This document shows positions 33,041 through 42,400 of a stretch of 64,000 bases of DNA, piece by piece. The DNA is from the human T2T-CHM13v2.0 reference genome, Homo sapiens, in assembly GCF_009914755.1 (NCBI RefSeq), contig NC_060935.1; one strand, 5' to 3'. Each line of letters opens with the position of its first letter. The stretch's first letter is position 1. The notes below the pieces were generated by a model. The model searched no databases. It was given only the letters and a program-made list of their open reading frames with translations, and was not told where the DNA came from. The translations under genes and the position numbers were made by a program.

Positions 33041-33424
33041 TTTTTTTTTAAATTATACTTTAAGTTTTACGGTACATGGGCACAACGTGCAGGTTTGTTA
33101 CATATGTATACATGTGCCATGTTGGCGTACTGCACCCATTAACTCATCATTTAACTTTAGGTATATCTCCTAATGCTATCCCTCCCCCAACACCCCACAC
33201 AACAACAGGCCCCAGTGTGTGATGTTCCCCTTTCTGTGTCCACGTGTTCTCATTGTTCAATTCCCACCTATGAGTGAGAACATGCAGTGTTTGCTTTTTT
33301 GTCCTTGCAATAGTTTGCTCAGAATGATGGTTTCCAGCTTCATCCATGTCCCTACAAAGGATATGAACTCATCATTTTTTATGGCTGCATAGTACTCCAT
33401 GGTGTATATGTGCCATATTTTCTT
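33041..33424 (-). mobile_element. 3' end (poly-A, 3'UTR, ORF2 tail) of the host L1PA4/5-like element
   Basis: T run then aattatactttaagtttt...caacgtgcaggtttgttaca...ctcctaatgc...aggcccc; ends at the TSD copy GCCATATTTTCTT (33412-33424). Confidence 0.92.
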
Positions 33425-33640
33425 TTTTTTTTTTTATTATACTTTAAGTTTTAGGGTACATGTGCACGTTGTGCAGGTTAGTTACATATGTATACATGTG
33501 CCATGCTGGTGCACTGCACCCACTAACTCGTCATCTGGCATTACGTATATCTCCCAATGCTATCCCTCCCCCCTGCCCCCACCCCACAACAGTCCCCAGA
33601 GTGTGATATTCCCCTTCCTGTGTCCATGTGATCTCATTGT

Positions 33641-38539: not shown

Positions 38540-39429
38540 CTTTGTGGTTTTATCTACCTTTGGTCTTTGATGATGGTGATGTACAGATGGGTTTTTGGTG
38601 TGGATGTCCTTTCTGTTTGTTAGTTTTCCTTCTAACAGAGAGGATCCTCAGCTGCAGGTCTGTTGGAATACCCTGCCATGTGAGGTGTCAGTGTGCCCCT
38701 GCTGGCGGGTGCCTGCCAGTTAGGCTGCTCGGGGGTCAGGGACCCACTTGAGGAGGCAGTCTGCCCGTTTTCAGATCTCCAGCTGCGTGCTGGGAGAACC
38801 ACTGCTCTCTTCAAAGCTGTCAGACAGGGACATTTAAGTATGCAGAGGTTACTGCTGTCTTTTTGTTTGTCTGTGCCCTGTCCCCAGAGGTGGAGCCTAC
38901 AGAGGCAGGCAGGCCTCCTTGAGCTGTGGTGGGCTCCACCCAGTTCGAGCATCGGGGCTGCTTTGTTTACCTAAGCAAGCCTGGGCAATGGCGGGCGCCC
39001 CTCCCCCAGCCTCGCTGCCGCCTTGCAGTTTGATCTCAGACTGCTGTGCTAGCAATCAGCGAGACTCCGTGGGCATAGGACCCTCTGAGCCAGGTGCGGG
39101 ATATAATCTCGTGGTGCACCGTTTTTTAAGCCAGTCTGAAAAGCGCAATATTCGGGTGGGAGTGACCCGATTTTCCAGGTGAGTCCGTCACCCCTTTCTT
39201 TGACTCGGAAAGGGAACTCCCTGACCCCTTGCACTTCCCAAGTGAGGCAATGCCTTGCCCTGCTTCGGCTCGTGCAAACCCACTGACCTGCGCCCACTGT
39301 CTGGCACTCCCTAGTGAGATGAACCCGGTACCTCAGATGGAAATGCAGAAATCACCCATCTTCTGCGTCGCTCACGCTGGGAGCTATAGACCGGAGCTGT
39401 TCCTATTCGGCCATCTTGGCTCCTCCTTC
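38540..39429 (-). promoter_or_regulatory. L1 5'UTR internal promoter and antisense promoter, CpG-rich (unit 1)
   Basis: YY1 motif (gccatctt on +), RUNX3-region motif gtacctcagatggaaatgca and many retained CpGs. Confidence 0.9.
38988..39182 (+). CDS. ORF0: L1 antisense ORF0, 64 aa (C-terminally shortened)
   Basis: MAGAPPPASLPPCSLISDCCASNQRDS...VTRFSR*; splice donors at 39093/94 and 39178/79. Confidence 0.75.
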   Translation: MAGAPPPASLPPCSLISDCCASNQRDSVGIGPSEPGAGYNLVVHRFLSQSEKRNIRVGVTRFSR

Positions 39430-42400
39430 GCCACATTTTCTTAATCCAGTCTATCGTTGTTGGACATTTGGGTTGGTTCCAAGTCTTTGCTATTGTGAAT
39501 AGTGCCACAATAAACATACGTGCGCATGGGTCTTTATAGCAGCATGATTTATAATCCTTTGGGTATATACCCAATAATGGGATTGCTGGGTCAAATGGTA
39601 TTTCTAGTTCTAGATCCCTGAGGAATCGCCACACTGACTTCCACAATGGTTGAACTAGTTTACAGTCCCACCACCAGTGTAAAAGTGTTCCTGTTTCTCC
39701 ACATCCTCTCTAGCACCTGTTGTTTCCTGATTTTTAATGATTGGCATTCTCACTGGTGTAAGATGGTATCTCATTGTGATTTTGATTTGCATTTCTCTGA
39801 TGGCCAGTGATGATGAGCATTTTTTCATGTGTCTGTTGGCTGCATAAATGTCTTCTTTTGAGAAGTGTCTGTTCATATCCTTCGCCCACTTGTTGATGGG
39901 GTTGTTTGTCTTTTTCTTGTAAATTTGTTTGAGTTCATTGTAGATTCTGGATATTAGCCCTTTGTCAGATGAGTAGATTGCAAAAATTTTCTCCCATTCT
40001 ATAGGTTGGCTGTTCACTCTGATGGTAGTTTCTTTTGCTGTGCAGAAGCTCTTTAGTTTAATTAGATCCCATTTGTCAATTTTGTCTTTTATTGCCATTG
40101 CTTTTGGTGTTTTGGACATGAAGTCCTTGCCCATGCCTATGTCCTGAATGGTAATGCCTAGGTTTTCTTCTAGGGTTTTTATGGTTTTAGGTCTAACGTT
40201 TAAGTCTTTAATCCAACTTGAATTGATTTTTGTGTAAGGTGTAAGGAAGGGATCCAGTTTCAGCTTTCTACATATGGCTAGCCAGTTTTCCCAGCACCAT
40301 TTATTAAATAGGGAATCCTTTCCCCATTGCTTGTTTTTCTCAGGTTTGTCAAAGATCAGATAGTTGTAGATATGCGGCGTTATTTCTGAGGGCTCTGTTC
40401 TGTTCCATTGATCTATATCTCTGTTTTGGTACCAGTACCATGCTGTTTTGGTTACTGTAGCCTTGTAGTATAGTTTGAAGTCAGGTAGTGTGATGCCTCC
40501 AGCTTTGTTCTTTTGGCTTGGGATTGCCTTGGCGATGCAGGCTCTTTTTTGGTTCCATATGAACTTTAAAGTAGTTTTTTCCAATTCTGTGAAGAAAGTC
40601 ACTGGTAGCTTGATGGGGATGGCATTGAATCTGTAAATTACCTTGGGCAGTATGGCCATTTTCACGATATTGATTCTTCCTACCCATGAGCATGGAATGT
40701 TCTTCCATTTGTTTGTATCCTCTTTTATTTCCTTGAGCAGTGGTTTGTAGTTCTCCTTGAAGAGGTCCTTCACATCCCTTGTAAGTTGGATTCCTAGGTA
40801 TTTTATTCTCTTTGAAGCAATTGTGAATGGGAGTTCACTCATGATTTGGCTCTCTGTCTGTTGTTGGTCTATAAGAATGCTTGTGATTTTTGTACATTGA
40901 TTTTGTATCCTGAGAGTTTGCTGAAGTTGCTTATCAGCTTAAGGAGATTTTGGGCTGAGACAATGGGGTTTTCTAGATATACAATCATGTCATCTGCAAA
41001 CAGGGACAATTTGACTTCCTCTTTTCCTAATTGAATACCCTTTATTTCCTTCTCCTGCCTGATTGCCCTGGCCAGAACTACCAACACTATGTTGAATAGG
41101 AGTGGTGAGAGAGGGCATCCCTGTCTTGTGCCAGTTTTCAAAGGGAGTGCTTCCGGTTTTTGCCCATTCAGTATGATATTGGCTGTGGGTTTGTCATAGA
41201 TAGCTCTTATTATTTTGAAATACGTCCCATTAATACCTAATTTATTGAGAGTTTTTAGCATGAAGGGTTCTTGAATTTTGTCAAAGGCCTTTTCTGCATC
41301 TATTGAGATAATCCTGTGGTTTTTGTCTTTGGCTCTGTTTATATGCTGGATTACATTTATTGATTTGCGTATATTGAACCAGCCTTGCATCCCAGGGATG
41401 AAGCCCACTTGATCATGGTGGATAAGCTTTTTGATGTGCTGCTGGATTCGGTTTGCCAGTATTTTATTGAGGATTTTTGCATCAATGTTCATCAAGGATA
41501 TTGGTCTAAAATTCTCTTTTTTTGTTGTGTCCCTGCCCGGCTTTGGTATCAGAATGATGCTGGCCTCATAAAATGAGTTAGGGAGGATTCCCTCTTTTTC
41601 TATTGATTGGAATAGTTTCAGAAGGAATGGTACCAGTTCCTCCTTGTACCTCTGGTAGAATTCGGCTGTGAATCCATCTGGTCCTGGACTCTTTTTGGTT
41701 GGTAAACTATTGATTATTGCCACAATTTCAGCTCCTGTTATTGGTCTATTCAGAGATTCAACTTCTTCCTGGCTTAGTCTTGGGAGAGTGTATGTGTCGA
41801 GGAATGTATCCATTTCTTCTAGATTTTCTAGTTTATTTGCGTAGAGGTGTTTGTAGTATTCTCTGATGGTAGTTTGTATTTCTGTGGGATCGGTGGTGAT
41901 ATCCCCTTTATCATTTTTTATTGTGTCTATTTGATTCTTCTCTCTTTTTTTCTTTATTAGTCTTGCTAGTGGTCTATCAATTTTGTTGATCCTTTCGAAA
42001 AACCAGCTCCTGGATTCATTAATTTTTTGAAGGGTCTTTTGTGTCTCTATTTCCTTCAGTTCTGCTGTGATTTTAGTTATTTCTTGCCTTCTGCTAGCTT
42101 TTGAATGTGTTTGCTCTTGCTTTTCTAGTTCTTTTAATTGTGATGTTAGGGTGTCAATTTTGGATCTTTCCTGCTTTCTCTTGTGGGCATTTAGTGCTAT
42201 AAATTTCCCTCTACACACTGCTTTGAATGTGTCCCAGAGATTCTGGTATGTTGTGTCTTTGTTCTCGTTGGTTTCAAAGAACATCTTTATTTCTGCCTTC
42301 ATTTCGTTATGTATCCAGTAGTCATTCAGGAGCAGGTTGTTCAGTTTCCATGTAGTTGAGCGGTTTTGAGTGAGATTCTTAATTCTGAGTTCTAGTTTGA

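What the first reader, a model, noticed from the sequence alone, without database searches (positions are those of the whole stretch)
33412..39442. Founding event: young L1 inserted co-directionally inside an older L1 at an L1-internal endonuclease site
Seen: a 13-bp TSD, GCCATATTTTCTT (33412-33424) and GCCACATTTTCTT (39430-39442, 1 mismatch), followed by AA. Host L1 sequence is continuous across the TSD (ORF2 ...[13 protein letters not shown]...). Known: TTTTCTT/AA fits the L1 endonuclease consensus TTTT/AA. Inference: the nesting placed two ~95%-identical ORF2 3' segments in direct orientation 5.6 kb apart, a ready substrate for unequal crossover.
Basis: partly seen in the sequence, partly recalled or inferred. 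Interest (0 to 1): 0.7.

Follow-up and report, generated by a model that had tools for sequence, protein, structure and literature searches.

The report
Nested LINE-1 seeded chromosome 11 array
On human chromosome 11 a younger LINE-1 retrotransposon sits inside an older one, followed by 16 near-identical 5.6-kb hybrids of the two that likely arose by recombination between them; the array is already reported, and this anatomy gives it a likely, testable origin.

Summary
The nest is real. A full-length young L1 (33425-39429, minus strand) interrupts an older 5'-truncated L1 with a 13-bp duplication (one mismatch). It is the left edge of a 17-unit array of 5,633-bp repeats ending at chr11:94,248,304. 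The 16 inner units are chimeras: about 580 bp of host, then young element, differing from it at 2 of 5,053 columns. They have no 3'UTR or poly(A), so they are not separate insertions. The host remnant at the far end carries a 1.3-1.4 kb patch copied from the young element (18 of 18 young-private bases). Best reading (0.5): gene conversion made perfect direct repeats, then unequal exchange built the array. The array (0-15 units in 94 haplotypes) is in a 2026 preprint, which labels the units L1HS; its main text gives no nest or TSD. Eight of 12 other loci fetched show the same nesting site with a perfect TSD; none shows a duplication in the 10 kb fetched. Ape orthologues were not testable.

The parts
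33041..33424 (-). 3' end of the older host L1 (short poly(A), 3'UTR, last ORF2 codons)
   Evidence: 88.3% to young 3' end; nearest outside copies 94%; old-type at 11 of 11 diagnostic columns
33412..33424 (+). left TSD copy (one private mismatch)
   Evidence: this junction has one 100% match among 40 scored rows
33425..39429 (-). young full-length L1 (L1PA2 in the preprint's figure legend); only unit with 3'UTR and poly(A)
   Evidence: nearest outside copies 98-99%; label
37523..38539 (-). ORF1, 338 aa, open
   Evidence: open in 16 of 17 units
33641..37459 (-). ORF2, broken into three open pieces
39430..39442 (+). right TSD copy, first of 17; followed by AA (TCTT/AA cut site)
39430..40009 (-). 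host-derived 580-bp segment of inner unit 2
   Evidence: matches the host remnant at 30 of 32 variable columns, 99.7% (measured on the commonest inner unit)
40010..40090 (.). host-to-young switch interval of the inner unit
   Evidence: last host-type column at unit position 581, first young-private base at 663
39430..64000 (-). chimeric inner units starting at 39430, 45063, 50696, 56329, 61962; 16 in all. They continue beyond the window to chr11:94,245,556, followed by the 5'-truncated host remnant at chr11:94,245,557-94,248,304 (host 1-580, young patch ~581-2020, host ~2021-2748)
   Evidence: period 5,633; 0-7 differences per pair, mean 2.0 over 120 pairs; remnant:

Best explanation
A full-length young L1 sits in the same orientation inside an older truncated L1 with a 13-bp target duplication, and 16 host/young chimeric 5,633-bp units follow it; these likely arose when gene conversion first copied about 1.4 kb of the young element over the matching host stretch and unequal exchange between the now identical direct repeats then duplicated and multiplied the unit. 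Shown: the nest, the TSD, the chimeric unit, the young patch in the host remnant, and the same left switch interval in units and remnant. Inferred: insertion by target-primed reverse transcription, the order conversion-then-duplication, and continued unequal exchange. The array formed late: unit 1 and the commonest inner unit differ at 2 of 5,053 columns, whereas the young element carries 29 private bases in about 2,730. The nest plus some recombination route (this and rivals 1-2) sums to about 0.95; the 0.5 is for this order.
For: Poly(T) run, 13-bp duplication and TCTT/AA site. Unit length equals the spacing of the homologous segments (5,633-5,634). Units switch from host to young in register, with no added bases. 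The remnant's patch shares 18 of 18 young-private bases, against 0 of 5 and 0 of 6 in the segments on either side, and is young-type at 6 of 6 diagnostic columns. The patch starts in the same 81-bp interval as the units' switch. Identical runs between insert and host are 802 and 637 bp here, against 16-125 bp at 12 of 12 other loci, none of which shows a near-identical direct repeat of 200 bp or more in the 10 kb fetched. All four base combinations occur at unit columns 3100 and 4656, which fits exchange between units. Copy number varies 0-15 among 94 haplotypes (preprint).
Against: One haplotype cannot order the events. A crossover at ~581 followed by a second one at ~2000 gives the same map. 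Unit 1 and the remnant share two derived bases (unit columns 1460, 1520; 12 of 12 comparators ancestral) that all 16 inner units lack. This model does not explain that without an added step, such as a second haplotype or a later transfer between the two ends. The long identical runs could be a result of the array, not its cause. Column 4656 is a CpG, so recurrent mutation could give the four combinations. The 12 control loci were top BLAST hits, not a random sample.
Confidence: 0.5

Rival explanations
1. Crossover first: unequal crossover between the ~95%-identical young and host segments at position 582-662 made the first chimeric unit; the remnant's young patch came later, by a second crossover near position 2000 or by conversion from unit 1.
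For: Gives the same unit map. If the founding crossover was between two homologues and the patch later came from unit 1, the two bases shared only by unit 1 and the remnant are explained. Eight mismatches in 33 bp just left of the switch (columns 549-581) could stop strand exchange at the same place twice (inference).
Against: The founding crossover must occur in DNA whose longest surviving identical run outside the patch is 89 bp. The version that explains the two shared bases needs the left boundary to coincide within 81 of 2,748 bp.
Confidence: 0.35
2. A circle excised between the young and host segments, or a looping repair synthesis, amplified the chimeric unit in one burst and was put back into the locus.
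For: 6 of 16 inner units are identical and 7 of the 11 variable columns are confined to one unit. Inner units lacking two bases common to both ends fits material brought in from another allele.
Against: Variants shared by non-adjacent units and the four-combination pair, and the 0-15 range of copy numbers, point to continued stepwise exchange. It still needs the nest.
Confidence: 0.1
3. The units are separate retrotransposed L1HS copies inserted one after another at the regenerated endonuclease site.
For: Each junction keeps the TCTT/AA site; the preprint's RepeatMasker-based annotation labels the units L1HS.
Against: Inner units have no 3'UTR, the longest T run in the commonest unit is 7, ORF2 is broken alike in all, and each carries 580 bp of host. 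They differ from the flank labelled L1PA2 at 2 of 5,053 columns. The preprint also rejects independent retrotransposition.
Confidence: 0.02
4. The array is an assembly artefact of a single nested L1.
For: Several units are letter-identical; the preprint notes that hg38 does not resolve it.
Against: 10 distinct unit sequences among 16; independent assemblies of 94 haplotypes show arrays. The exact count of 16 could still be off.
Confidence: 0.01

Closest known systems
Chromosome 11 tandem LINE-1 array, bioRxiv 10.64898/2026.05.14.725010 (read: section 10 in full, keyword passages of Discussion and Methods; supplements not readable)
   Same: Same locus (hs1 chr11:94,140,954-94,254,695); 16 inner copies in hs1; flanks called L1PA2 and L1P1; 5'UTR and ORF1 kept, ORF2 not intact; local duplication, not retrotransposition.
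   Different: It calls the units L1HS. Its main text has 0 hits for 'target site', 'TSD', 'unequal' and 'chimp' and one unrelated 'nested'. The nest, the chimeric unit and the young patch in the remnant are not in what I read.
Transposon-containing macrosatellites / composite repeats (Warburton 2008, PMC2588610, passages and part of one section read; Hoyt 2021 preprint 10.1101/2021.07.12.451456, keyword passages read)
   Same: Kilobase head-to-tail units of transposon origin, near-identical, attributed to unequal crossing over.
   Different: Here the unit is L1 only and both parents survive at the ends, so the founding junction can be read. Neither paper names this locus in the passages seen.
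Transposable-element-mediated rearrangement / L1-L1 non-allelic recombination (PMC9675761 seen only in a search listing; otherwise recalled)
   Same: Chimeric element with an in-register junction between two same-orientation L1 copies.
   Different: The two partners are nested, not dispersed, so the duplicated interval is the inserted element itself, and it went on to 16 copies.
Insertion hotspots inside transposons (Levy 2010, PMC2836564, keyword passages read)
   Same: Elements insert repeatedly at fixed positions of a target element.
   Different: 0 hits for 'L1 within L1' or 'within L1' in its main text; its supplements were not opened and may list this site.

Membership tests
L1 insertion by target-primed reverse transcription (young element) | poly(A) tail at the 3' end | tested here: met
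   T run from 33425 on + strand
L1 insertion by target-primed reverse transcription (young element) | target-site duplication of 7-20 bp (range recalled) | tested here: met
   13 bp, 1 mismatch, host positions 372-384 on both sides
L1 insertion by target-primed reverse transcription (young element) | endonuclease site like TTTT/AA | tested here: met
   TCTT/AA, one-base variant; consensus recalled
L1 insertion by target-primed reverse transcription (young element) | empty site in an outgroup genome | not testable with these tools
   the genome has no relatives in the tool
Nested insertion in one host L1 | both host pieces of one older lineage and co-linear | tested here: met
   old-type at 11 of 11, 2 of 2 and 9 of 9 diagnostic columns; the last set is biased because the 4 old comparators were chosen by that segment
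Macrosatellite / large VNTR | head-to-tail kilobase units, near-identical | tested here: met
   17 junctions, 15 spacings of 5,633 and one of 5,632; mean 2.0 differences per pair
Macrosatellite / large VNTR | copy number varies between people | not testable with these tools
   taken from the preprint: 0-15 in 94 haplotypes
Non-allelic homologous recombination product | in-register chimeric junction inside shared identical sequence | tested here: met
   switch within unit columns 582-662, no added bases
Non-allelic homologous recombination product | reciprocal deletion allele or de novo events observed | not testable with these tools
   needs other haplotypes or pedigrees
Independent L1HS insertions (inner units) | own 3'UTR, poly(A) and TSD | tested here: not met
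Independent L1HS insertions (inner units) | subfamily call against Dfam/RepeatMasker models | not testable with these tools
   no such library; L1PA2, L1P1 and L1HS labels come only

The most novel reading that the evidence does not exclude
The TCTT/AA site near the end of L1 ORF2 is a recurring self-insertion site that builds direct-repeat nests genome-wide. At chromosome 11 a gene conversion turned one nest into a macrosatellite seed, and the two unit clades that never mix on a haplotype (preprint) are two independent births from it. Humans then differ by 0 to 16 copies of a block of L1 promoters and open ORF1 frames inside a lncRNA intron.
Probability: 0.2. Interest if true: 0.7.

Novelty: new variant of a known kind. 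Interest (0 to 1): 0.45.

Why it matters
How macrosatellites are born is usually hidden, because the founding copies are overwritten. Here both parents, the TSD and the switch points survive, and 94 assembled haplotypes with 0-15 units exist, so conversion-first against crossover-first can be decided from public data. It also suggests that 16 reference 'L1HS' calls are copies of one older element, which bears on counts of young L1s and on mapping of L1 RNA reads. No phenotype is known to me; each ingredient (nesting, L1-L1 recombination, the array) is already described.

Tried and rejected
Tandem Repeats Finder missed the array (longest period 500) and reported only the 384-bp host/young 3' pair there; that pair is not a local duplication, being 88% alike and of different lineages. 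A host patch in the inner units spanning columns 1460-1520 was rejected: they keep the young-private base at 1488 between the two. A host origin for the shared 1.4-kb segment was rejected. No TSD was found for the host itself; the only shared word is the T/A run at its ends. Larger comparator sets (20 host-type, 20 young-type copies) were not obtained, so lineage painting rests on 4 old-type and 6 young-type copies; 6 of the 12 nest inserts were left out of the young group as older. No control of other L1-internal endonuclease sites was run, so 'hotspot' is untested. Literature: 8 answered searches found only the 2026 preprint on this locus; keyword passages of two further papers did not mention it. 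The preprint's supplements could not be read and may hold unit alignments that bear on the origin.

Full report
Observation. The two 13-mers are at 33412-33424 and 39430-39442 with one mismatch. All L1 sequence here is on the minus strand. Reading left to right on the plus strand: 384 bp of an older L1's 3' end (33041-33424), a poly(T) run, a full-length younger L1 (33425-39429; ORF1 open at 338 aa, ORF2 in three pieces), then L1 sequence resuming at host position 372. Positions 372-384 therefore occur on both sides, which is the real evidence for a TSD; the motif by itself is ordinary L1 sequence and also occurs inside the young element. The sides translate as ...WIKKMW and [11 protein letters not shown].... 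The cut site is TCTT/AA, a variant of the TTTT/AA consensus (recalled).

The larger structure. Self-comparison shows a 5,633-bp period from 33796 to the window's end. In the genome, 17 of 40 scored matches to the right junction are 100% hits spaced 5,633 bp apart on chr11 (1,783 candidates, 40 scored). With the adjacent 88 kb fetched, the array has 17 units and ends in a 2,748-bp host remnant at chr11:94,245,557-94,248,304. The 16 inner units differ by 0-7 bases per pair (mean 2.0, 120 pairs), fall into 10 types, and have 11 variable columns, 6 at CpG. ORF1 is open in 16 of 17 units; the longest T run in the commonest inner unit is 7, so only unit 1 has a 3'UTR and tail. The left junction has a single 100% match among 40 scored rows.

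Who gave which part. I split the region shared by the young element and the remnant into a (unit positions 14-581), b (582-2020) and c (2021-2740). In a, the commonest inner unit matches the remnant at 30 of 32 variable columns. In b and c it matches the young element, apart from two columns. Beyond column 581, unit 1 and the commonest inner unit differ at 2 of 5,053 columns. The remnant differs from the young element by 5.5% in a, 1 base in b and 6.6% in c. Segment b is of young origin: its nearest outside copies are 98%, against 94% for the host 3' end, 95-96% for host c, and 98-99% for the young 3' end and young c. Of bases private to the young element against 12 comparators, the remnant shares 0 of 5 in a, 18 of 18 in b and 0 of 6 in c; the inner unit shares 0 of 5, 16 of 18 and 6 of 6. 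At 28 lineage-diagnostic columns (4 old-type and 6 young-type comparators; 6 older nest inserts left out), the host 3' piece is old at 11 of 11, inner unit and remnant are old at 2 of 2 in a, all three are young at 6 of 6 in b, and the remnant is old at 9 of 9 in c. The c result is biased, since the old comparators were picked by that segment. The young element itself carries the old base at 2 of the 28.

Mechanism. Shown: nest, chimeric unit, mosaic remnant, and one left switch interval (582-662) common to units and remnant. Inferred: insertion put 2.7 kb of ~94-95% direct homology 5.6 kb apart; much later, exchange between the two copies made a host/young unit whose length is exactly that spacing, and unequal exchange multiplied it. 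The array is young relative to the nest: 2 differences in 5,053 columns against 29 private bases in about 2,730. With a recalled rate near 0.5e-9 per base per year the inner units' diversity (3.6e-4) would mean a few hundred thousand years; CpG excess and homogenisation make this rough. I favour conversion first (0.5), because it supplies 1.4 kb of perfect homology and the shared boundary in two steps. Crossover first (0.35) fits as well and, in a two-homologue version, explains a result that counts against my choice: unit 1 and the remnant share two derived bases (1460, 1520) absent from all 16 inner units, although these keep the young-private base at 1488. Some exchange between the two ends, or a second haplotype, is needed in any model. 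This stays unexplained.

Controls. Twelve of the other 23 rows span both sides of the junction; all 12 were fetched. Each holds a full-length L1 whose 5' end abuts L1 sequence starting at position 368-373. Eight of 12 have a perfect 13-14-bp TSD at this site; in four only 8-10-bp words were found. Their co-linear host 5' parts align over 72-1,329 bp at 75-98%, with longest identical runs of 16-125 bp, against 802 and 637 bp at chr11. None of 12 has a direct repeat of 200 bp or more at 97% or more in the 10 kb fetched. So nesting at this site recurs and is ordinary; expansion was seen only here, where the shared segment is both long and close in sequence. These loci are top hits, not a sample, and no other site was counted as a control.

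What is known. The array is described in bioRxiv 10.64898/2026.05.14.725010 (section 10 read in full; passages): 16 copies in hs1, 0-15 in 94 haplotypes, two unit groups never mixed on a haplotype, flanks L1PA2 and L1P1, units called L1HS. Its main text has no hit for TSD, target site, unequal or chimp. Its supplements could not be read. Since the inner units are the flanking 'L1PA2' element minus its 3' end plus host DNA, the L1HS label is probably an annotation effect; I could not run RepeatMasker. Eight answered searches found no other paper on the locus; most subscription papers are not in the library. Insertion hotspots within transposons (PMC2836564, passages) and transposon-containing macrosatellites (PMC2588610; 10.1101/2021.07.12.451456) are established.

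Verdict. The locus is known; its founding anatomy was not in what I read. Interest 0.45.

Noticed in passing
L020 (G000:C11:82087700-82097699), oriented positions 329-1075: 747 bp of AT-rich DNA with its own poly(T) lies between the host 3' piece and the inserted L1, inside a perfect 13-bp TSD: likely a 3' transduction carried into the nest.
   Followed up: partly
G000 C11:63357576, C4:120910945, C7:105754357, C23:35512673, C5:157041182: Five more loci span the left (host 3' piece / poly(A)) junction, suggesting further insertions at the same L1-internal site. Not fetched.
   Followed up: no
window 56329-61961 (unit 5): Only unit whose ORF1 is interrupted; its private change is at a CpG.
   Followed up: partly
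window 33041-64000 and beyond: The array lies within the span of predicted lncRNA LOC105369435 (+ strand, hub table), with no listed exon in the window part of the array. L1 antisense promoters (recalled) of the 17 units would face the same way as the lncRNA. No expression data here.
   Followed up: no
L019, L021, L023, L027, L028, L029: 6 of 12 nest inserts carry about 126 extra bases in the 5'UTR that the chr11 element lacks; this fits the 129-bp segment lost in later L1PA3 and younger elements (recalled).
   Followed up: no
G000 C18:33253, 87269, 141315: Three equal-scoring L1 3' ends about 54 kb apart near the chr18 start, probably a subtelomeric repeat.
   Followed up: no
window 6972-11965 and 16958-18814; 21238-21418; 24773-24886: Older L1 fragments at 67-84% to the array, a 91-bp two-copy repeat and an ATAG microsatellite. 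Ordinary.
   Followed up: no
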